DNA of 64,000 bases, from positions 68,667-132,666 of the forward strand of contig CAZKZP010000004.1 of assembly GCA_964557295.1 (NCBI GenBank). The letters run 5' to 3'. Positions 540 to 46,340 of this stretch are shown here, in pieces. Under the pieces are notes generated by a model, which was not told the origin of the DNA, did no database searches, and saw only the letters and a program-made list of their open reading frames with translations. A program made the position numbers and the translations under genes. The stretch comes from an uncultured Chromatiales bacterium. Its GTDB lineage: Bacteria > Pseudomonadota > Gammaproteobacteria > RBG-16-57-12. Each line of letters opens with the position of its first letter. Position 1 is the first letter of the stretch.

Positions 540-625
540 AGACTCACGCCCCTTGCCTACCTCCATGTAGGCAAAGCTTGCTCCTACAAAACAGGTTGGA
601 GCCAGCTTTAGATGGCGATAGCACT
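540..625. repeat. REP-like interspersed repeat, family 2 copy A (motifs cctacctccatgtaggcaaagc / gccagctttagatggcgat)
   Basis: It shares motifs with copies at 21175-21262, 46298-46340 and 46800-46895 (core gtaggagccatctttagatggcgat and its reverse complement). Confidence 0.5.
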
Positions 626-4364: not shown

Positions 4365-6665
4365 ATGCTCAAGAAAATACCCATACTCATTTTCAGCGCA
4401 ACTCTGTGCGCTTGTGGTGGAGGATCGACAGGAAGTGAAAAAAATTCCGGACAGAATAGCCCCCAAGACAATGAGGAAATCGTCGCAGCCATGCAAGGCA
4501 GCGTCGGCGACGGCCCGATCCAGAACGCCGTCATCGCCATCCGCGACAAGAACGGCGCAGTGGTGCAAGCCCTCATGGGCAGCGGCACGGCCAGCTATGA
4601 AACCACGATCAACGTCAAACGAAGGCTCTATCCCCTGACGATCGAAGTCTCCGGCGGCACCGATCTCGTCACCGATACCGCCCCCGACTTCACCTTGTAT
4701 TCAGTCGCGCTCAAGCCGAGTGCATCGAGCACCTTCAACGTCAATCCGTTCACCACCTTCATCACCCGCATCGCGCAGAACATGCCGGGCGGCATTAACA
4801 CCACCAACGTACAAACCGCCACAGATACCGTATTGGCGAATCTGCACGCGGGACTGGATACCACGCTCATCTCCGACACCATTGGTCAAACTGTCGACGC
4901 CAACACGATCGCGGTGATGGTCAAGGCGAGCGAGTCCGTGGGCGAAATCGTGCGCAGAACGCGCGATGGCATTCGGGCAAAAGGCCTGGACGTCACGGGC
5001 GATGACATCGTCGATGCGCTCTCGGCCGACCTCGTCGATGGCAAGATCGATGGCCGCGGCGCTACCGGTGCCGACAACCGCATCGCCGCCGTCGCCAACC
5101 TGGTCACCGGCCAGGTTCTGCTCGAAGTGGTGCGCAACCGCCTGAACGTCAACGGCGCCGAAGCGACCGTGCGCATGGACAACGCCATTATGGCCACACA
5201 TCCCGGCAGCACTAAACTGACCGGCTCGGTGGCCATTACCGGCGAAATCATTGATCAGTCCAAACGTATCGTCGATGTCGTCAACACCATTACCCCGAGC
5301 ACTACATTGGTCGAGATCTCGAAACAGCTTGCCACACTTGCGCCCAATAGTTCCGCCAGTGACGCAGACCGGACTCTGCCAGACGCTGCCAGCGGCGCGC
5401 TCGACGGCGCCATTCAATATGCCCTGCAAGCCGATGCTACCGATCTGAAGGCGATCAATGATGTCGTGCCAGGGCCGCTCCCGACGCAAACGCCTGCGCC
5501 GACCGCAACACCCACTCCGACCCCGAGGGCCACACCAACGCCTGCGCCGAGCGCGGCACCCACGCCGACACCTGCGCCGATCATCGTGCCGGGACCTGGT
5601 CCGACTCTGACGCCCAAGCCGACAGCGACGCCCTCACCGACACCCAAGCCAACGGCGACACCCTCACCCACGCCCAAGCCGACAGCGACGCCCTCACCCA
5701 CGCCCAAGCCAACGGCGACGCCCTCACCGACGCCCAAGCCAACGGCGACGCCCACGCCTGCACCAGGCCCCACTCAAACGCCGAAGCCATCACCTACGCC
5801 CACTCCGGCGCCTCAGGCGGTAGCCCCGGTGCTCAATTCCGCAACCGTTAAAGGAACGGATATTGTACTGGCCTGGTCCCAGGGCAACCCGACACCCGAT
5901 GGTGGCTATGATCTCTTCATCGACAATACCGACACCGGCAGCAAATATCGCACGACCGCCCTATCGCTCACCCTGAGCGGCTTGGATGTATCGGTAGCGC
6001 ATTGCTTCAAGGTCGAGTCCCGGTATGTCGCGCTGAACCAATTCCTGCCCTCGAACGAGCGCTGCACCACACCGGTGGTCACTCCGCAGAATGCAGCGCC
6101 CACCCTCAGCGGCACCCCCGCTGGCAGTGTCGCGGCGGGATCATACTACCTGTTCACGCCGAAGGCATCCGACGCCAATGGCGACACCCTCACCTTCAGC
6201 GTCAGCAACAAGCCTGCTTGGGCCATGTTCGACACCGCCACCGGCAAATTGTCCGGCATCCCGAATGCAGCCAATGCCGGCACCGCCAGCAACATCGTGA
6301 TCACCGCCTCAGATGGCAAGGCCAGCACATCGCTTCCCGCCTTCGCCATCACGGTGACCACTTCAAGCACCGGCGGTGGCAGTGGCAGCGGCAGCGGCAG
6401 CGGCAGCGCCACACTGTCATGGAGCACTCCTACCACCAAGGAAGATGGCAGCCCGATGCCCATGTACGAAATCGCCGGTTATCGCGTCTATCGCGGGACG
6501 GCTCCGGACAAGATGACCGTCATATCAGACATCAAAAACAACACCACGACATCGTATACCGCCACAGCGCTCACGAGCGGGACTCATTACTTTGCCGTAA
6601 CCACATATGACGTCAACAACATCGAAAGCTCACTCTCAAGCGTCATGAGCAAGACGATTCCGTAG
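4365..6665 (+). CDS. modular surface lipoprotein with Pro/Thr-rich tandem-repeat linker, two FN3-like domains, a putative Ig (cadherin-like) domain and a (GS)n linker
   Basis: 766 aa. The N-terminal [21 protein letters not shown] shows a lipobox. A PT-rich region [10 protein letters not shown] is repeated about five times. A putative Ig-like stretch is TLSGTPAGS...[33 protein letters not shown] is followed by an FN3-like C-terminal domain ([10 protein letters not shown]...YRVYRGT...[10 protein letters not shown]). A strong terminator lies immediately downstream. Confidence 0.8.
5610..5758 (+). repeat. in-frame 30-bp tandem repeat (about 4.8 copies) encoding ([10 protein letters not shown])n
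   Basis: The unit acgcccaagccRacRgcgacRccctcaccS repeats head-to-tail. The antisense ORF 5414..5773 ([10 protein letters not shown] repeats) is its shadow. Confidence 0.85.
6372..6407 (+). repeat. hexanucleotide microsatellite (ggcagY)n encoding the (GS)n linker
   Basis: The sequence is ggcggtggcagtggcagcggcagcggcagcggcagc, in frame inside CDS 4365..6665. Confidence 0.8.
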
Positions 6666-7924: not shown

Positions 7925-9622
7925 ATGAATAAACTTACCAGCGCAACCTGGCTTCTGGGCCTGACCATGCTCGGTTCAAGCGCCGCCCATGCGTATACCC
8001 CACCCATCGGCATTCCAGCACCTTCCTTCGGCATCGATGAAACCGCCCCGGCACAGCCTGCGGCCTGGCCCAGCGGCGAAGCTGCCGGATTCTACTATGT
8101 CGACAAATCCCACCCATCAGCCACTGACACTGGCAACTCGTACGGCTATCCCAACAAGCCTCGACTGACTATTCCGAGAACCACATTTGGCCCAGGCGCT
8201 TACATTGAACTGCACGGGGGAGAATATAGTGGAAGCCTAGGCATGCTCACCTTCGATTGCCGCAAGGAAAACCCTTGCTGGCTGAGAGGTGCCAGCGCAA
8301 GTGTAATGCCGACAATTTCCGGGAACTTTACGCTGGATGCCACTTACCTGATTGTAGAGAATCTCGATTTCAATGGAGGCACAGGCGGCAGTATCGATAT
8401 AGTCAGCGATTCGACTTATGTGTCTGTGCGGCACTCAAAATTCCGCAACAGGGCTTTTGTAAGCAACACCGCCGCAATTGGCATCACACCAGCGCTTGGA
8501 AAAAAATCTCACGACATCGTAGCCTATAAAAATGAGTTCAGCGCGCTTGGTGACTATACGGCAACAGTGGATCTCGATTTTCATGCGATCAACCCGACCC
8601 TCTGGGGGCGTGACAGCACTACTGAGTTATTCAATGTGTGGGCACTTGAAAACCATTGTTACCGCCTAAGCGGCGATTGTGTTCAAGTGAATGCTGGTAA
8701 TTGGACCGACTCTTATAAATATCTGCATCATGTCTATATAGGAAAAAATGTAGGCCATGAAGGACGTCAGGGTCCATTTGGCGTCAAACAATCAAGTGAT
8801 GTAATAATTTCTCAAAACACAGCCTATGGATCGCGCCAACACGGCCCACAAGCAGGCAATGGGATTGGGTTTCAATACGGCCCCAATAATTTATGGATTA
8901 TCTTCAACGATATATCCGATTCTAACTATGGCATTCGGCAAACGGATACCTCCACCCCCTTCCCAAACAACAAGATCTATATTGTCGGAAACGTAATTCA
9001 TAACATTCATCCTGAAGCTAGCATCACCTACAACCCCAACGATGCCTGGAGACCTGGGGTCGCCATATCCTTGTGGCATGGCAACCTGCAACGCTTCATC
9101 GTGGACAACACCATTTATGATGTTCATGGCGGCATTACAGCCATCTATGATGGCCCATTGACCATTTCAAACAACATTATTTCTAATATTCACGATCAGG
9201 ACTATCACTTATACATTGCCCATCCAGCTCGACCAAATCCAACTGCAGATGCCTCTATCGACAGCGGCCTGTTCTACGACCCCGAGCTCGGCAACGCCAA
9301 AATTCGCTGGGAAGGTGGAAATGGTGATTTGCATAACACCCTGACGTCCTTTAAAGCTGCGTATGGGTTATGCGCTGACTGTTCAGTAGGCAATCCCGAC
9401 TTTCTAGATCCAGCGAATGGAAAGTTTGATCTGCAAAAAACATCCGCGGCTATTAATAAAGGCAAAGATCAATCAGTCTACGACACATTTTTCAGTCTAT
9501 ATGGCATAAACATCGAAAAGGACTTCCACGGCCAATCTCGCAAGATTGGATTAAAACAGGACTTCGGTGCATTTGAGGTAGGCCTAGCGCCTACTGCACC
9601 AAGTAATTTTACAGTAAAATAA
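7925..9622 (+). CDS. secreted right-handed parallel beta-helix protein (pectate-lyase-fold polysaccharide lyase/hydrolase candidate), paralog 1
   Basis: 565 aa with a Sec signal peptide MNKLTSATWLLGLTMLGSSAAHA. It contains multiple PbH1-like repeats (NLDFNGGTGGSIDI, IISQNTAYG, GNGIGFQYGPNNLWIIFN, IVGNVIHNIH, IVDNTIYDVHGGI, ISNNIISNIHD). It ends with an FN3-like first strand, APTAPSNFTVK. GC is lower than in the locus core. Confidence 0.8.
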   Translation: MNKLTSATWLLGLTMLGSSAAHAYTPPIGIPAPSFGIDETAPAQPAAWPSGEAAGFYYVDKSHPSATDTGNSYGYPNKPRLTIPRTTFGPGAYIELHGGEYSGSLGMLTFDCRKENPCWLRGASASVMPTISGNFTLDATYLIVENLDFNGGTGGSIDIVSDSTYVSVRHSKFRNRAFVSNTAAIGITPALGKKSHDIVAYKNEFSALGDYTATVDLDFHAINPTLWGRDSTTELFNVWALENHCYRLSGDCVQVNAGNWTDSYKYLHHVYIGKNVGHEGRQGPFGVKQSSDVIISQNTAYGSRQHGPQAGNGIGFQYGPNNLWIIFNDISDSNYGIRQTDTSTPFPNNKIYIVGNVIHNIHPEASITYNPNDAWRPGVAISLWHGNLQRFIVDNTIYDVHGGITAIYDGPLTISNNIISNIHDQDYHLYIAHPARPNPTADASIDSGLFYDPELGNAKIRWEGGNGDLHNTLTSFKAAYGLCADCSVGNPDFLDPANGKFDLQKTSAAINKGKDQSVYDTFFSLYGINIEKDFHGQSRKIGLKQDFGAFEVGLAPTAPSNFTVK

Positions 9623-9741: not shown

Positions 9742-11427
9742 ATGACAAAACATAACACAGCAACCTGGCTTCTGGGCCTGACCATGCTCGGTTCAAGCGC
9801 CGCTCATGCGTATACCCCGCCCATCGGCATTCCAGCGCCCGCGTTCGGCATCGATGAAACCGCCCCGGCACAGCCTGCGGCCTGGCCCAGCGGCGAAAAG
9901 GCCGGGTTCTACTACGTCGACAAGTCCCATCCTTCGGCGACAGACACCGGCAACACATACGGCTATCCCAACAAGCCCCGGTTGACAATTCCGAACACCA
10001 CCTTTGGGCCTGGGACTTACGTTGAGCTGCACGGGGGGACGTATTCCTCAAACATGAGCCTGAACTTCAACTGCACTCAGGCAGCCCCCTGCTGGGTCAG
10101 AGGCGCCAGCGCCACAACCATGCCGACAATCACCGCATCGATGAGCATTAATTCCAAATATTTGATTGTGGAGAACCTCGATTTCAACGGCGGGGTTGGT
10201 GGTGCGTTGAACGTGACGGGTACGTCACAATATGTATCCATCAGGCACTCCAAGATCCGCAACAGGGCGCATCCCACTGGTGCTACCGCCGCCATCGGCC
10301 TCATTCCCGCCCCTGGCCAAAAAGTGTCAGATGTCGTGATCCATAAGGTTGAGTTCAGCGATCTCGGCGACTGGTTACGCCTGGACGATCTGGATTTTCA
10401 CGGTGTCAATCCGAGCCTCTGGGGACGTGACAGCACCGCCGAGCTTTCCAATGTGTGGATTCTTGATAGCCAATGCTTCCATGTGAGCGGCAACTGCGTG
10501 CAGGTCAATGCCGGCAACTGGGCCGATAGCTGGAAATATCTCCACCACGTCTATATTGGTCGGAACGTCTCCCATGCCGGCCGACAGGCAGGTTTCTGGT
10601 CCAAGCAGGCACGGGATGTCATCATCTCGCAGAATACCGTCTATGATAACCGAGCGCACGGCCCCCAACCCGGAGACGGCATCGGCTTCCAATATGGTCC
10701 GGACAACCTATGGATCATCTTCAATGAGATTTACAACTGCAATTACGGAATCCGGCAGTCGGATACTGGCACCAGCGCCAGCACTCACAAGGCCTATATT
10801 CTCGGAAATCTGATCTACAACATTCATCCAGAAGATGTCGCCGCCTACAAGCCGAATGACGGATGGCGGCAAGGACTCGGGATCACCTTGTGGCATGGCA
10901 ATATGCAGCGTCACATCGTCGACAACACCATCTATGATGTACATGGTGGCATTAACACGATCTATGACGGCCCAGTGTCCATGTCAGGGAACATCATTAC
11001 AAACATTCACGATGCAGATTATCACATCAGCAGCTCGCACTCCGCGCGCAGCGGAAACGCATCAATCGACAGTGGGCTGTTCTATGACCCGGAACTGGCC
11101 TCAGCCCGTATCAACTGGAACTGGGCAGATTACACCAGCCTGTCAGCCTTCAAAAGTGGTACGGGGAATATACAATGCAGCGGCTGCGAAGTCGGCAATC
11201 CTGCATTCGTCGACCCGACAACCGGAAAGTTTGACCTGCAAAAAACCTCCTCGGCCATTAACAAAGGGAAGCTGCATTCAGCGTATGACACTTTCTTTAC
11301 GCTCTATGGCATAGACATCAAAAAGGACTTCGCAGGCAGGACTCGCGTACTGGGATTGAAGCCGGACTTCGGAGCCTTTGAGGTGGGTGTAGCCCCTACT
11401 GCGCCGAGCAACTTTACAGTCAAATAG
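9742..11427 (+). CDS. secreted right-handed parallel beta-helix protein, paralog 2 (tandem duplicate of 7925..9622)
   Basis: 561 aa, colinear with paralog 1. The first roughly 170 nt are about 90% identical at DNA level and diverge thereafter. It has the same signal peptide, the same PbH1 repeats and the same C-terminal APTAPSNFTVK. Confidence 0.8.
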   Translation: MTKHNTATWLLGLTMLGSSAAHAYTPPIGIPAPAFGIDETAPAQPAAWPSGEKAGFYYVDKSHPSATDTGNTYGYPNKPRLTIPNTTFGPGTYVELHGGTYSSNMSLNFNCTQAAPCWVRGASATTMPTITASMSINSKYLIVENLDFNGGVGGALNVTGTSQYVSIRHSKIRNRAHPTGATAAIGLIPAPGQKVSDVVIHKVEFSDLGDWLRLDDLDFHGVNPSLWGRDSTAELSNVWILDSQCFHVSGNCVQVNAGNWADSWKYLHHVYIGRNVSHAGRQAGFWSKQARDVIISQNTVYDNRAHGPQPGDGIGFQYGPDNLWIIFNEIYNCNYGIRQSDTGTSASTHKAYILGNLIYNIHPEDVAAYKPNDGWRQGLGITLWHGNMQRHIVDNTIYDVHGGINTIYDGPVSMSGNIITNIHDADYHISSSHSARSGNASIDSGLFYDPELASARINWNWADYTSLSAFKSGTGNIQCSGCEVGNPAFVDPTTGKFDLQKTSSAINKGKLHSAYDTFFTLYGIDIKKDFAGRTRVLGLKPDFGAFEVGVAPTAPSNFTVK

Positions 11428-20827: not shown

Positions 20828-20925
20828 TGTATGTTCATCGTATGCAATTGCAACTTCATCGGCGACGACATGTCGGTCGTGTTTTTTTATTAACCCGGCG
20901 ATTAAATATATCTGCCACGTATCTT

Positions 20926-21062
20926 AAAAGCGTCCCTTCTCCCTCCGGGAGAAGGATAGGATGAGGGAGTAAATTAATGTGTTAATCCCCCTCACCCTAG
21001 CCCTCTACCCTAAAGGGCATAAATCCCGGAGGGAGAGGGAACAGTACACCAGATCCATTTTG
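20926..21062. repeat. interspersed repeat family 1 copy (hairpin ccttctccc-tccg-ggagaagg, core ggatgagggagtaaattNatg...ccccctcaccctagccctct, second hairpin)
   Basis: An 85-bp core is shared at about 90% with 26996-27095. A partial third copy (ttctccctgagggagaa) lies at 21090-21140. Confidence 0.6.
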
Positions 21063-21174
21063 TCGCCGGGTTAATAATTTAATCATCGGCGCCAAAATAG
21101 GTCTGCTTTTATTCCTTCTCCCTGAGGGAGAATGAACGTCTTGAATATGCGACAGAGGTGTTACTAACTTGGCG

Positions 21175-21262
21175 GCTAAAGATACCTGCTGCTGTAGGAG
21201 CAAGCTTCAGCTTGCGATCAGCCACCGCTGCGATGATCGCCATCTAAAGATGGCTCCTACAT
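21175..21262. repeat. REP-like repeat family 2 copy B (ctgtaggagcaagcttcagcttgcgatc...gatcgccatctaaagatggctcctac)
   Basis: The motif gccatctaaagatggctcctac is shared with 46298-46340. Motifs are also shared with 540-625 and 46800-46895. Confidence 0.6.
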
Positions 21263-21297
21263 CAGATGTAATTGATCGCCGAGTTAATACTAACCAA

Positions 21298-25784: not shown

Positions 25785-26939
25785 CTAAGCACAAAAATGT
25801 TCCTTGATCGACGCCACCACGCGCACGGCTGTCTTACCATCCCACAGATCGGGAACTTGATGCTTCATGGCCTTCGGGCCGAAGATGGCGTCGATGCGGG
25901 CCTTGATGTTGTCGAGGCTGCACAATTGATTGGTGCCTTGCGATACCGTGATCGGCCGTTCGGTGTTGGCGCGCATGGTGAAGCACGGCACGCCGAGATA
26001 TGTGGTTTCTTCTTGCACGCCGCCGGAATCGGTGAGGACAAAGCGGCAGTTGAACACCAGGTTCATGAAGCGCACGTAATTCACTGGTTCCAGCAAATGG
26101 ATGGCGCGATTTTCGCGCAGCGTGTCGTATAGGCCCAACTGTTCGAGATTCTTGCGCGTGCGGGGGTGCACTGGAAACACAATGGCCGTTTTGCGGGAGA
26201 GGTCGTGCAGCAGTGCGCACAGCGCGCGGAGATTGTCGAGATGGTCGACATTGCTGGGGCGATGCAGCGTGACAACGCCATAGCCGCCCTTGCTCAATCC
26301 CAACTCGGTGAAATAGGCCTCGGCCTCGATCTGTTTGCGCATCATCTCCAGCGAATCGATCATGATATTGCCGACGCGCACGATCTTGTCCTCCGCCACG
26401 CCTTCGCGCCGCAGGTTCTCGTCGGCGTCGGGCGACGGCGTCCACAGCAGATCCGCCAGGACATCCGTCGCCAGGCGGTTGACTTCCTCCGGCATGGTGC
26501 GATCGAAGGAGCGCAGTCCGGCCTCCAAATGCGCGATCACCGGCCTCTGCAAGGGCAGACGCGGACGGCCGGGTTCGGCCAACCGCTTGGCATCATAGAT
26601 CATCTTGGCCGCCGCCAGCGTGCAGGCGATGGTCGAGTTCACATCACCGACCACGACCACCATGTCGGGTTGTGATTCACGCAACACCTTTTCATACGCG
26701 ACCATCACCGCGGCGGTTTGTTCGGCGTGCGAGCCGCTGCCCACTCCGAGATGGATGTGCGGCTTGGGCAGACCCAAATCCTGAAAAAACGCATCCGACA
26801 TATTGGCGTCATAATGCTGGCCGGTGTGCACCAATTCCGTTTGCGCCCAAGGCGCTTCGATCAGCGCGTGATACAGGGGCGCGATCTTCATGAAATTCGG
26901 TCTTGCCGCTGCGATAAGATGGATTTTTGCCTTCACCAT
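25785..26939 (-). CDS. wecB: UDP-N-acetylglucosamine 2-epimerase (non-hydrolysing)
   Basis: 384 aa with the WecB/MnaA N-terminal KIHLIAAARPNFMKIAPLYHAL and conserved HTGQHYD. Confidence 0.9.
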   Translation of the reverse strand: MVKAKIHLIAAARPNFMKIAPLYHALIEAPWAQTELVHTGQHYDANMSDAFFQDLGLPKPHIHLGVGSGSHAEQTAAVMVAYEKVLRESQPDMVVVVGDVNSTIACTLAAAKMIYDAKRLAEPGRPRLPLQRPVIAHLEAGLRSFDRTMPEEVNRLATDVLADLLWTPSPDADENLRREGVAEDKIVRVGNIMIDSLEMMRKQIEAEAYFTELGLSKGGYGVVTLHRPSNVDHLDNLRALCALLHDLSRKTAIVFPVHPRTRKNLEQLGLYDTLRENRAIHLLEPVNYVRFMNLVFNCRFVLTDSGGVQEETTYLGVPCFTMRANTERPITVSQGTNQLCSLDNIKARIDAIFGPKAMKHQVPDLWDGKTAVRVVASIKEHFCA

Positions 26940-26995
26940 TCACCTCTTTGCAATTACATTCATCTCGTGAGAACAGCCGTCACGATACCCTGGGC

Positions 26996-27095
26996 GCCAA
27001 AAAAACGGATATCGCCTTCCCCATGCAGGAGAAGGTTGGGATGAGGGAGTAAATTCATGCCCCCTCACCCTAGCCCTCTCCCGATGGGAGAGGGC
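26996..27095. repeat. interspersed repeat family 1 copy
   Basis: The sequence ggagaaggttgggatgagggagtaaattcatgccccctcaccctagccctctcccgatgggagaggg matches the copy at 20926-21062. Confidence 0.6.
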
Positions 27096-27366
27096 ATTAC
27101 TAAGACGATCGGTAGTAAAGCCTCATTCAGAGCCACCCCAATGTTGCGGAACAAGGCGCAGTGCGCAGGCAATGGCAAGCCCTTGTCAAGCACTGCAACG
27201 CTGGGCTGCAACATTGGGGTGGCTCCCTTCGGGCGGACGGCTAGACGGCCATCCGCCGCGTTGCGACGGTTTGACATAGATTGACTATGCCGGCACCGCC
27301 GCGCCTTGCGGGCTGACCGTCTAGCCGCCCGCTGAATGCGGCTTTACTACCGATCGTCTTAGTATT
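27096..27366. mobile_element. MITE-like element of about 270 bp with terminal inverted repeats (25 bp perfect, about 35 bp imperfect) and two internal long hairpins
   Basis: Outer inverted repeat (IR): tactaagacgatcggtagtaaagcc (27096-27120) against ggctttactaccgatcgtcttagta (27337-27361). Inner IR-B: gagccaccccaatgttgc (27130-27147) against gcaacattggggtggctc (27206-27223), with nested palindromes in between. Inner IR-C: cgggcggacggctagacgg (27229-27247) against ccgtctagccgcccg (27301-27319). It is non-coding and lies between the wecB start and the sugar-transferase stop. Confidence 0.55.
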
Positions 27367-27381
27367 GCCGGGCACGGTAGC

Positions 27382-28794
27382 TCACACGGCGCCCTCGCCT
27401 CTCAACACCACCGGCACGGTTTTGAACAGAATCTTCAGATCCAGCTTGAGCGACCAGTTTTCGATATACGCCAGATCCAGTTCCAGCCACTTTTCAAACG
27501 GCAGGCTGCTGCGGCCCGAGATCTGCCACAGGCAGGTCAACCCCGGCTTGACGCTGAACCGTTTGCGCTGGATGCCGCGATCGAACAAGTTGACGTCGCG
27601 TATCGACATTGGCCGCGGCCCTACCAGACTCATATGTCCCAACAGCACATTGAACAATTGCGGCAGCTCATCCAGGCTGGTCTTACGCAGAAACTTTCCT
27701 ATGCGCGTCACGCGGGGATCATTGGCGATCTTGAAGATGGGACCGGAGGCCTCGTTGAGATGCTCGATGTCCTTGAGCTTCTGCTCGCTGCCCTCGACCA
27801 TCGATCTGAATTTGTACATCGGGAATACCCGCTTGCGGTAGCCGACACGCTGCTGCACGAAAAACACCGGGCCGGGCGAATCCAGTTTGATGGCAAGGGC
27901 GATCACCGTCAGGATGGGCAACAGTATCGGCATCGCGGCGGCGGTCAGCACGATGTCGATCAGCCGCTTCAGGAACAGCTCGGCATCGTGCTGGGCCACC
28001 GGCTCGAAATTCAACAGCGGCACGCCGCCCAACACATCCAGCCGCATGCGCGCCACTTGAAAATCAAACAGATCCGCCATCAGCTTCAACATCACGCCTT
28101 CCTCGCTGCAAGCATCGACGATTTTTCCGACATCCTCGATCATTGAGCGTGGAACCGCGAGCACCACTTCATCCACCACATGCCATTTCAAGATATTGCT
28201 GATCTCATCCACTGTGCCGATCACCTTCGACCCGCAGAGCTCTGTACCGACCATGTCCGGGTCGATATCCAGATAGCCGACGACATCCACCCCCCAATTC
28301 GAGTTCTTCTTCAGCAGTTCCGTGACCCGGACGGCACGCTCCCCGGTGCCCACCACCAGGACCTTCAGGCGGTTCTCATCCTTGATCTTGAATCGCTTGA
28401 AATACCACCATGTCAGTATCGCGCGGTTCAGAATGAGAAACGCCACGCTCACGACCGTAAATGCCGTGATGACGATCCGGCTGATGCCCTGCTCACCCAG
28501 GAAAAACAGCATCATGATGAGCAAGGCCAGGGTCAAGATATAGCCTCGGGCGACAATCCATGCATAGTTCACCATGGAGATGCGCAACTGTCGGTAGGCC
28601 CCCCAATAACTGAAGCTCAATCCCAGCGACGGCAGAATGATTGGCAAGAGCGCCAGATGCAGGATGGTATCGACTTCCTTGCCGGGAACAAACATTGCGT
28701 GGGCGTGCACTGCCCAGATGTAGCAAAGCACGATGACAAGCCCATCGAGCACAAAAACCAATCGACTTAGATGTTTTGATTTATCGTCTATCAT
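27382..28794 (-). CDS. undecaprenyl-phosphate sugar-1-phosphate transferase (bacterial sugar transferase family, EpsB/WbaP-like initiating enzyme)
   Basis: 470 aa with N-terminal TM helices and a C-terminal catalytic domain (DSPGPVFFVQQRVG...FKFRSM...DELPQLFNVLLGHMSLVGPRP). Confidence 0.85.
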   Translation of the reverse strand: MIDDKSKHLSRLVFVLDGLVIVLCYIWAVHAHAMFVPGKEVDTILHLALLPIILPSLGLSFSYWGAYRQLRISMVNYAWIVARGYILTLALLIMMLFFLGEQGISRIVITAFTVVSVAFLILNRAILTWWYFKRFKIKDENRLKVLVVGTGERAVRVTELLKKNSNWGVDVVGYLDIDPDMVGTELCGSKVIGTVDEISNILKWHVVDEVVLAVPRSMIEDVGKIVDACSEEGVMLKLMADLFDFQVARMRLDVLGGVPLLNFEPVAQHDAELFLKRLIDIVLTAAAMPILLPILTVIALAIKLDSPGPVFFVQQRVGYRKRVFPMYKFRSMVEGSEQKLKDIEHLNEASGPIFKIANDPRVTRIGKFLRKTSLDELPQLFNVLLGHMSLVGPRPMSIRDVNLFDRGIQRKRFSVKPGLTCLWQISGRSSLPFEKWLELDLAYIENWSLKLDLKILFKTVPVVLRGEGAV

Positions 28795-30852: not shown

Positions 30853-30943
30853 CTAAGCCTCGCCACGCGGGTCGAGGCATAAATGGCATTATCCGCGGCC
30901 GATGCACGCGAAAAGTACTCGCCCGTTTTCTTGGCCCTACCCA

Positions 30944-46297: not shown

Positions 46298-46340
46298 CGC
46301 ATGCGATCAATCATCGCCATCTAAAGATGGCTCCTACCGG
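46298..46340. repeat. REP-like repeat family 2 copy C (atcgccatctaaagatggctcctac)
   Basis: It matches 21236-21260 exactly over about 25 bp. Confidence 0.55.

What the first reader, a model, noticed from the sequence alone, without database searches (positions are those of the whole stretch)
27096..27366. 270-bp MITE-like element with 25-bp perfect terminal inverted repeats and two internal long hairpins inside the operon
Between the stop of the sugar transferase and the start of wecB is a non-coding element. Its ends are perfect 25-bp inverted repeats, extendable to ~35 bp with mismatches. Its interior folds into two independent long stem-loops, so the whole element is predicted to form a three-way-junction structure in read-through RNA. 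It resembles Correia/ERIC-type miniature elements, which alter mRNA stability and processing, and it is immediately adjacent to a copy of repeat family 1.
Basis: seen in the sequence. Interest (0 to 1): 0.6.

Follow-up and report, generated by a model that had tools for sequence, protein, structure and literature searches.

The report
Single-copy hairpin-rich insert in polysaccharide operon
A roughly 277-base non-coding stretch that folds into a very stable three-armed hairpin sits between two genes of a polysaccharide operon and is missing from the closest relatives, so it looks like a small mobile-element-type insertion, but no second copy was found anywhere.

Summary
Arms 27093-27130 and 27332-27369 form a 38-nt inverted repeat with 2 mismatches and a 25-nt perfect core. 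They enclose two local hairpins, 27130-27225 and 27233-27332. Either strand folds into a three-way junction at about -185 kcal/mol, z about -14.

The element lies on the minus-strand transcript of an exosortase-type exopolysaccharide operon. It starts 12 nt after the sugar-transferase stop and ends about 155 nt before wecB.

Two relatives have the same gene order without it. L082 has a 159-bp spacer that aligns base for base with the window's flanks. L002 has a 58-bp spacer. The window/L082 difference is one 290-nt block, 27072-27361. That block contains the element minus its outermost 8 nt on the transferase side, plus one hairpin of the neighbouring family-1 repeat.

No second copy was found in the window, 185,579 species genomes, 241 million metagenome contigs, plasmids, phages, E. 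coli genomes or 5.8 billion protein clusters. Rfam gives nothing. The window encodes no transposase.

No target-site duplication can be shown, because the TA "duplication" follows automatically from the inverted repeat.

Verdict: this is a lineage-specific insertion or deletion that looks like a MITE. Mobility, copy number and any RNase III effect remain inferred. It is ordinary in kind and of low-to-moderate interest.

The parts
27093..27130 (.). Left arm of the outer inverted repeat (GGCATTACTAAGACGATCGGTAGTAAAGCCTCATTCAG). The perfect 25-nt core is 27098-27122. The first two bases (GG) are also the last two of the family-1 h3 stem.
27332..27369 (.). Right arm of the outer inverted repeat. 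The perfect core is 27340-27364. The outermost 8 nt (27362-27369, GGCAATAC on the minus strand) are also present in the element-free relative L082.
27130..27225 (.). Internal hairpin A, 96 nt, with perfect 18-bp stems at 27130-27147 and 27208-27225. It contains a 13-nt tandem duplication at 27193-27218.
27226..27232 (.). 7-nt linker (CCTTCGG) at the three-way junction between hairpins A and B.
27233..27332 (.). Internal hairpin B, 100 nt, an imperfect palindrome (arms 74% complementary over 38 nt, with a perfect 10-bp GGCTAGACGG/CCGTCTAGCC segment).
27072..27361 (.). The 290-nt block that is present in the window and absent from the orthologous spacer of L082. It comprises family-1 hairpin h3 plus the whole element except the outer 8 nt of the right arm.
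27015..27095 (.). Family-1 repeat copy: h1 27015-27035, h2 27036-27072, h3 27073-27095. It has the same three-hairpin architecture as a repeat found about 9 times per E. coli genome.
26940..27071 (-). wecB leader, including family-1 h1-h2. It is shared with L082 at 94.1% identity, which is higher than third codon positions of the neighbouring gene (75.8%).
27382..28794 (-). Upstream gene: Bac_transf/CoA_binding_3 sugar transferase. Its stop codon lies 12 nt before the element.
25785..26939 (-). Downstream gene: UDP-N-acetylglucosamine 2-epimerase (WecB, Epimerase_2). The likely real start is GTG at 26936.

Best explanation
The element is a lineage-specific piece of selfish or neutral palindromic DNA of the MITE kind: a non-autonomous transposable element, or the relic of one. 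It entered the short spacer between the sugar-transferase gene and wecB, next to an older family-1 palindromic repeat.

Shown: it is an extra block relative to both closest relatives, it encodes nothing, and it has long near-perfect terminal inverted repeats and an extremely stable three-way-junction fold.

Inferred:
1. A transposase encoded elsewhere, acting on the terminal inverted repeats, moved it. A TA target as in Correia, RUP or IS630-type elements is possible but not demonstrable.
2. No sigma-70 promoter or intrinsic terminator is predicted in the spacer, so the element is probably read through as part of the operon mRNA.
3. Its 38-bp outer stem (25 bp perfect) and the 18-bp perfect stem of hairpin A would then be double-stranded RNA long enough for RNase III.
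4. Cleavage would cut the polycistronic mRNA between the two genes and uncouple the stability of the upstream and downstream halves, as shown experimentally for Correia elements in Neisseria.
For: - Structure: searches give the 38-nt inverted repeat, two inner hairpins, z about -14 and an identical fold on both strands. That is what a DNA palindrome gives and what a strand-specific RNA gene usually does not.
- Presence/absence: L082 (WecB 90% identical) has the same gene order and a 159-bp spacer that aligns with the window on both sides of a 290-nt gap. L002 (WecB 89%) has a 58-bp spacer with neither repeat.
- Leader folding: the whole window leader folds at z -11.7, whereas the L082 leader is unremarkable at z 0.14.
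- No known RNA family matches, either at E<=10 locally or at gathering score across the window.
- No promoter-like or terminator-like site lies in 26700-27600, and the genes from 35406 down to 19583 are all on the minus strand, which is consistent with read-through.
- The same genome lineage piles small palindromic repeats into intergenic spacers. Spacer 20828-21297 is 470 bp against about 124 bp in L002 and holds a family-1 copy nested inside another 28-nt inverted repeat, plus REP-like units. One of those repeats sits at a different site in L082, at a contig end.
- Literature: Correia elements insert at TA, and RNase III cleaves their stem in transcripts (PMC2649163, PMC10969869).
Against: - Only one copy exists in 64 kb.
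- The TIR 21-mer has no exact match in 185,579 species genomes or 241 million metagenome contigs.
- A gapped two-end pattern finds nothing in the metagenome contigs.
- BLASTN finds nothing in plasmids, phages or E. coli genomes.
- A six-frame translation finds nothing among 5.8 billion protein clusters.
- MAG326 (L002), the closest genome in the species collection, therefore carries no copy with that 21-mer.
- No transposase lies in the window.
- No target-site duplication can be shown. TA on both sides follows automatically from the inverted repeat, because TA is self-complementary. The only other candidate, GGGAGAG/GGGCACG, matches 5 of 7.
- The indel boundaries against L082 do not coincide with the inverted-repeat ends.
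- RNase III processing and read-through are untested.
Confidence: 0.5

Rival explanations
1. The element is a stepwise mosaic rather than one transposon. It would be a pile-up of three unrelated palindromic units (outer pair, hairpin A, hairpin B) that inserted into one another or beside the family-1 repeat, like BIME/REP mosaics or nested MITE clusters. There would then be no single 277-bp mobile unit.
For: - Hairpins A and B share no sequence with each other or with the outer arms.
- Their ages look different: hairpin A stems are 18/18 perfect, while hairpin B arms are 74% complementary.
- Nesting is seen elsewhere in the window: a family-1 copy lies inside the 28-nt inverted repeat 20887-20914/21050-21077.
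- The MITE review notes elements inserting into one another (PMC10969869).
Against: - Neither hairpin A nor hairpin B occurs anywhere else in the window, and their stem sequences are absent from viral contigs.
- The three helices meet with only a 7-nt linker and no leftover flanks or duplications at the inner junctions, which is tidy for three independent insertions.
Confidence: 0.2
2. The element is a selected cis-acting RNA or DNA structure. It would have been present in the common ancestor of the window and L082, kept because its fold is useful (for example as a processing or stability module separating transferase and wecB expression), and lost from L082 by one deletion.
For: - A single deletion between the CTA triplets at 27360-27362 and 27070-27072 plus one substitution turns the window sequence into the L082 sequence. 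This explains why h3 and the element are missing together and why 8 nt of the arm remain in L082.
- Family-1 h3 is canonical, so L082 is the derived state for h3.
- The outer arms have only 2/38 mismatches, although third codon positions differ by 24% between the two genomes.
- The adjoining leader is unusually conserved at 94%.
Against: - Both relatives run the same operon without the element.
- The fold is equally good on both strands.
- There is no Rfam match.
- There are no homologues, so covariation cannot be tested.
- A recent insertion explains the intact stems equally well.
Confidence: 0.15
3. The element is a locally generated palindrome, made in place by replication template switching or inverted duplication. 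It would never have been mobile.
For: - It is single-copy in every search.
- The outermost complementary bases are shared with pre-existing sequence: GG of h3 on one side and GGCAATAC, present in L082, on the other.
- A 13-nt tandem duplication lies inside hairpin A.
Against: - About 260 nt of interior sequence have no source in the window or in L082/L002. The material was therefore imported, not copied from the neighbourhood.
- Three separate perfect or near-perfect palindromes are hard to obtain from one template switch.
Confidence: 0.1
4. The element is an assembly artefact, such as a chimeric or fold-back join in a metagenome-assembled contig.
For: The source appears to be an NCBI contig of 136,879 bp from an unnamed organism whose closest relatives are MAGs. 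Palindromes are known trouble spots for assemblers.
Against: - Fold-back artefacts duplicate neighbouring real sequence in inverted order. Here the interior is novel sequence, with three nested, imperfect palindromes and point mismatches typical of evolved DNA.
- The flanks on both sides continue collinearly with L082.
Confidence: 0.03

Closest known systems
Correia repeat-enclosed elements (CREE/NEMIS) of Neisseria
   Same: Both are non-coding, have perfect or near-perfect terminal inverted repeats of about 25 bp that start with TA, are often co-transcribed with neighbouring genes, and form a double-stranded RNA stem from the inverted repeats. In Correia that stem is cleaved by RNase III. Correia elements also show presence/absence differences between related genomes (PMC2649163, PMC10969869).
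   Different: Correia elements are 104-157 bp and occur more than 100 times per genome, with a conserved core and an IHF site. This element is 263-277 bp, has one known copy, shares no sequence with Correia and has two long internal hairpins. A TA duplication cannot be shown here.
ERIC/IRU elements of enterobacteria
   Same: Both are imperfect palindromes inserted in transcribed intergenic regions of operons. ERIC affects mRNA decay through RNase E in Yersinia (PMC10969869).
   Different: ERIC is about 127 bp (from memory) and folds as one long hairpin. BLASTN of this element against 5,426 E. coli genomes finds nothing.
RUP and Nezha-type MITEs mobilised by IS630-family transposases
   Same: These elements use a TA target and have terminal inverted repeats and a small non-coding body (from memory).
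   Different: No IS630-family transposase or matching terminal inverted repeat was found here. The TA flanks are not independent evidence.
REP/BIME mosaics and REPINs
   Same: These are clusters of small palindromes that accumulate after stop codons inside operons. The window does carry REP-like GTAGGAGC units.
   Different: The element has no GTAG-type REP motif, is much longer, and has true terminal inverted repeats.
Tn3-derived inverted-repeat miniature elements (TIMEs)
   Same: The inverted-repeat length, 38 bp, equals the typical Tn3-family end.
   Different: The GGGG...TAAG end motif is absent, and the 5-bp flanks GAGAG and GGGCA are not a duplication (read directly; the motif is from memory).

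Membership tests
Prokaryotic MITE (generic) | Small (about 50-500 bp) and without coding capacity | tested here: met
   The element is 263-277 bp. All six frames are broken or meaningless, and a six-frame search found no protein match.
Prokaryotic MITE (generic) | Terminal inverted repeats | tested here: met
   The arms are 38 nt and 95% complementary, with a 25-nt perfect core.
Prokaryotic MITE (generic) | Several copies in the genome | tested here: inconclusive
   There is one copy in the 64-kb window and none in any public collection searched. The rest of the source genome could not be read.
Prokaryotic MITE (generic) | Target-site duplication flanking the element | tested here: inconclusive
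   TA at 27098-99 and 27363-64 lies inside the inverted repeat and is self-complementary, so it is not independent evidence. The 7-mer flanks GGGAGAG/GGGCACG match 5 of 7.
Prokaryotic MITE (generic) | Presence/absence polymorphism at an orthologous site | tested here: met
   A 290-nt block is absent from L082, and the whole region is absent from L002. The block edges do not match the inverted-repeat ends.
Prokaryotic MITE (generic) | A related autonomous IS with the same ends | tested here: not met
   No transposase is found in any large ORF of the window. The TIR 21-mer is absent from the genome and metagenome collections. The source genome outside the window was not testable.
Correia/CREE | Correia repeat sequence and conserved core; 104-157 bp; Neisseria | tested here: not met
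   The length is 277 bp, against the sizes given in PMC2649163. The TIR TACTAAGACGATCGG... is unrelated to the Correia repeat TATAGTGGATTAA... (from memory). The closest relatives are uncultured Pseudomonadota, with Thiodiazotropha-like hits next.
ERIC/IRU | Sequence similarity to the enterobacterial ERIC consensus | tested here: not met
   BLASTN (word size 11) of the element against 5,426 E. coli genomes, which carry ERIC, gave no match at E<=1.
Any Rfam RNA family (riboswitch, leader, ribozyme, sRNA) | Covariance-model score at or above the gathering threshold | tested here: not met
   The best local hit is 23 bits against a gathering score of 168, to a plant miRNA model that simply matches any long hairpin. 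There are no hits at gathering score in the whole window.
Retron msr/msd non-coding RNA | Inverted repeats a1/a2 around structured RNA, next to a reverse transcriptase gene | tested here: not met
   The neighbours are polysaccharide-synthesis genes. There is no RT domain anywhere in the window.
Intrinsic terminator or attenuator | GC-rich hairpin followed by a U tract | tested here: not met
   No terminator-like site lies in 26700-27600 on either strand.
Tn3-derived TIME | 38-bp Tn3-type ends (GGGG...TAAG) and a 5-bp duplication | tested here: not met
   The ends are GGCATTAC..., and the flanks GAGAG and GGGCA differ. The motif definition is from memory.

The most novel reading that the evidence does not exclude
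The element is the first seen member of an undescribed family of three-way-junction non-autonomous elements. Such elements would home to the edge of boxC-like (family-1) palindromic repeats. This one would have been kept in this lineage because its double-stranded RNA stems create a processing site that uncouples wecB expression from the upstream part of an exosortase-type polysaccharide operon.
Probability: 0.1. Interest if true: 0.45.

Novelty: new member of a known kind. Interest (0 to 1): 0.25.

Why it matters
If it is a true MITE, it adds one more small family from an uncultured gammaproteobacterial lineage. It would also be a clean natural case of a long double-stranded RNA-forming insert inside a polysaccharide operon, useful for testing how such inserts change polycistronic mRNA fate. 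If it is truly unique in its genome, it is a reminder that a perfect transposon-like anatomy can exist as a single-copy indel. Neither outcome changes a major question.

Tried and rejected
**Searches for more copies (all negative)**
- Exact 21-mer of the TIR in species genomes and metagenome contigs gave 0 hits.
- A gapped two-end pattern in metagenome contigs gave 0 hits.
- A 17-mer in viral contigs gave one hit inside a coding sequence. I read it and rejected it as chance.
- Stem sequences of hairpins A and B in viral contigs gave 0 hits.
- BLASTN against plasmids, phages and E. coli genomes gave only sub-30-nt chance hits or nothing.
- BLASTN against all 82 fetched loci gave nothing.
- A six-frame translation searched against 5.8 billion protein clusters, to catch spurious ORFs called on other copies, gave nothing at E<=10.

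**Attempts to reach the source genome**
- The cluster look-up gave no name.

**Readings considered and rejected**
- Riboswitch, leader or ribozyme: Rfam negative.
- Intrinsic terminator or outward promoter.
- Retron: no RT in the window.
- Tn3-type ends.
- REP/REPIN.
- TA as a proven target duplication. I rejected this because TA is self-complementary and lies inside the inverted repeat.

**Question left undecided**
I tried to date the element by comparing stem integrity with neutral divergence. The result is not decisive, because the adjoining leader is itself conserved at 94%.

Full report
**1. What is in the sequence**

Two arms, 27093-27130 and 27332-27369, are 38 nt long and 95% complementary. 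Their perfect run is the 25-mer TACTAAGACGATCGGTAGTAAAGCC, at 27098-27122 and, inverted, at 27340-27364. With up to three mismatches allowed, the 24-nt core occurs only at these two places in the 64-kb window, against 0 expected in shuffles.

Between the arms lie two independent palindromes:
- Hairpin A is 27130-27225, with perfect 18-bp stems.
- Hairpin B is 27233-27332. Its arms are 74% complementary and include a perfect 10-bp segment.
- A 7-nt linker joins them.

Folding 27085-27378 as RNA gives the same three-way junction on either strand. The minus strand gives -189.2 kcal/mol (z -14.7) and the plus strand -181.8 kcal/mol (z -13.6). No shuffle folds as well. The only correction is that the inverted repeat extends three bases further on each side than the stated coordinates.

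**2. Context**

All genes from about 35406 down to 19583 are on the minus strand. They form an exosortase/PEP-CTERM-type exopolysaccharide locus:
- exosortase EpsH
- a TPR protein
- a polysaccharide export protein
- a Wzz-like chain-length determinant
- a heparinase II/III-like protein
- a Bac_transf sugar transferase (27382-28794)
- WecB (25785-26939)
- a polysaccharide deacetylase
- a WecG/TagA-family transferase
- a sulfotransferase
- several glycosyltransferases

The element begins 12 nt after the transferase stop and ends about 155 nt before wecB. The 442-bp spacer contains no sigma-70-like promoter and no intrinsic-terminator-like site, so read-through transcription is the simplest expectation. 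This is an inference.

No large ORF in the whole window has a transposase, integrase or reverse-transcriptase domain. The rest of the window is ordinary chromosome: glycogen metabolism, glucose-6-phosphate dehydrogenase, glucokinase and a Lon-like protease.

**3. Known RNA families**

A permissive Rfam scan of 26500-27900 returned only far-sub-threshold matches of long-hairpin miRNA models. The best was 23 bits against a gathering score of 168. A gathering-score scan of the whole window returned nothing. The element is not a known riboswitch, leader, ribozyme or sRNA.

**4. Comparison with relatives (the most informative result)**

A scan of 185,579 species genomes with WecB found one close relative, L002 (MAG326, an unclassified Pseudomonadota bacterium), at 89% identity. 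The next hits, at 68% or below, are Thiodiazotropha-like and Desulfobacterales genomes. In L002 the transferase and wecB are only 58 bp apart, with neither repeat present.

A protein search found a second relative, P0002, at 90% identity. Its contig L082 comes from Logan run SRR22388192. L082 has the same heparinase-transferase-wecB order and a 159-bp spacer.

That spacer aligns base for base with the window on both sides of one gap (alignment A1; BLAST breakpoints at window 27362 and 27071). Read on the minus strand:
- L082: TGAcctaccgtgtCCGGCAATAC|CAGGGTGAGAGGGAATGAATTTAC...
- Window: TGAgctaccgtgcCCGGCAATAC|TAAGACGATCGG ... CCGATCGTCTTAGTAATGCCCTCTCCCATCGGGAGAGGGCT|AGGGTGAGGGGGCATGAATTTAC...

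The window therefore carries a 290-nt block (27072-27361) that L082 lacks. The whole window leader folds far better than chance (z -11.7). The L082 leader does not (z 0.14).

**5. What the comparison does and does not settle**

The variable block is not the same as the inverted-repeat element. On the transferase side, the outermost 8 nt of the arm (GGCAATAC) are present in L082. On the other side, the block includes the other arm's outer 8 nt plus hairpin h3 of the family-1 repeat.

Family 1 has a canonical three-hairpin form, h1-h2-h3. This form is seen in the second window copy (20935-21040). It is also seen in a look-alike repeat present in 5,366 of 5,426 E. coli genomes, at a median of 9 places per genome. 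The L082 copy, which lacks h3, is therefore probably the derived state.

Three histories fit the data:
- **(i) Late TA insertion.** The 263-bp core CTAAGACG...CGTCTTAG inserted at the central TA of GGCAA-TA-ATGCC in the window lineage. L082 separately lost h3, with a deletion end point that happens to coincide.
- **(ii) Ancestral element, one deletion.** The element was already present in the common ancestor. L082 lost element plus h3 in one deletion between the CTA triplets at 27360-27362 and 27070-27072, followed by one substitution.
- **(iii) Block gain.** The whole block arrived together, for example by recombination with another family-1 copy that already carried the element.

I cannot separate these. 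Stem integrity does not date the element. The arms have 2/38 mismatches, while third codon positions of the transferase gene are only 75.8% identical between the two genomes. However, the adjoining non-coding leader is itself 94.1% identical. The intact stems therefore fit either a young insertion or a region under constraint.

No target-site duplication can be claimed. TA occurs on both sides, but it lies inside the inverted repeat and is self-complementary, so it is not independent evidence. The 7-mers outside the arms (GGGAGAG and GGGCACG) match at 5 of 7 positions, which is not significant.

**6. Copy number**

Every search for another copy was negative:
- the window itself
- an exact TIR 21-mer in the species-genome and metagenome collections
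- a gapped pattern requiring both 12-nt tips at the right spacing
- hairpin stem sequences in viral contigs
- BLASTN against plasmids, phages and E. coli genomes
- BLASTN against the 82 fetched loci
- a six-frame translation against 5.8 billion protein clusters

The one 17-mer hit in a viral contig lies inside a coding sequence and is a chance match.

The source genome is in NCBI: P0001 is 100% identical to the window's WecB and sits on a 136,879-bp contig. It could not be reached. Its copy number, the decisive fact for the MITE claim, therefore stays unknown.

**7. Interpretation**

The anatomy is that of a MITE-like palindromic insertion: long terminal inverted repeats, no coding capacity, symmetry on both strands, a position just after a stop codon next to other small repeats, and absence from relatives.

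The lineage clearly accumulates such repeats:
- Spacer 20828-21297 is 470 bp, against about 124 bp in L002.
- It holds a family-1 copy nested inside another 28-nt inverted repeat, a solo hairpin and REP-like GTAGGAGC units.
- One of these repeats sits at a different site in L082, at a contig end.

By analogy with Correia elements, a read-through transcript here would carry a 38-bp stem and an 18-bp perfect stem that are plausible RNase III substrates. In Correia elements the inverted-repeat stem in mRNA is cut by RNase III, and insertion is at TA (PMC2649163 and PMC10969869). This functional step is an inference only.

The element shares no sequence with Correia or ERIC and fails or cannot complete the membership tests for every named family. 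I therefore file it as a new, so far single-copy, member of the general MITE/palindromic-insert kind, not as a member of a known family.

**8. Rivals**

- A stepwise mosaic of three unrelated palindromes: 0.2.
- A selected ancestral RNA/DNA structure lost from L082: 0.15.
- A locally generated palindrome: 0.1.
- An assembly artefact: 0.03.

The tests that would separate them are in the next-steps field.

**9. Verdict**

The kind is known and the family is new or unique. Interest is about 0.25. The feature is real and neatly structured, but a palindromic insertion in an operon spacer is a common type of finding, and nothing here points to a new mechanism.

Noticed in passing
window 27015-27095 and 20935-21040; L083 (E. 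coli K-12 hrpB-mrcB spacer) 301-386: 'Family 1' is a three-hairpin repeat (CCYTCTCCC-loop-GGGAGARGG, then GGRTGAGGG...CCCTCACCC, then a second CCCTCTCCC...GGGAGAGGG). A repeat of the same architecture, about 72% identical, is present in 5,366 of 5,426 E. coli genomes at a median of 9 places. It may be the repeat called boxC (from memory, not verified). Sharing across such distant gammaproteobacteria is notable.
   Followed up: partly
window 26940-27071 versus L082 3566-3700: The wecB leader, including family-1 hairpins h1-h2, is 94.1% identical between the two genomes. Third codon positions of the adjacent transferase gene are only 75.8% identical. The leader therefore seems to be under constraint or was recently exchanged.
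   Followed up: partly
window 20828-21297: This second expanded spacer in the same operon is 470 bp, against about 124 bp in L002. A 28-nt inverted repeat (20887-20914/21050-21077) encloses a family-1 copy. A solo hairpin lies at 21114-21134, and a REP-like GTAGGAGC...GCTCCTAC unit ends at 21262.
   Followed up: partly
L082 1-34 versus window 20888-20921: The arm of the 28-nt inverted repeat recurs (91% identity) at the very start of contig L082, upstream of the heparinase gene. The window has no such repeat at that site (30853-30943). This repeat family is therefore shared by both genomes, sits at different sites, and coincides with a contig break.
   Followed up: partly
window 595-619 (+), 21236-21260 (-), 46313-46337 (-): A REP-like 25-mer, GTAGGAGCCATCTTTAGATGGCGAT, is present three times (0-2 mismatches). 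It resembles Pseudomonas-type REP sequences (from memory). No RAYT-type transposase was seen in the window.
   Followed up: no
window 26936-26939: wecB probably starts at GTG 26936 rather than ATG 26939. The AAAGAGG ribosome-binding site is 6 nt from the GTG and only 3 nt from the ATG. The L082 gene call also uses the GTG and gives 383 aa.
   Followed up: no
window 5484-5825 (inside ORF 4365-6665, +): A run of degenerate 30-nt tandem repeats encodes a Pro/Thr/Lys-rich linker in a protein with a putative Ig (He_PIG) domain.
   Followed up: no
window 7925-9622 and 9742-11427 (+): Two adjacent paralogous genes of 565 and 561 aa share segments of 74-84% nucleotide identity at a spacing of 1817 nt. 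One has a weak beta-helix match and the other has no Pfam match. They look like a tandem duplication next to the polysaccharide locus.
   Followed up: no
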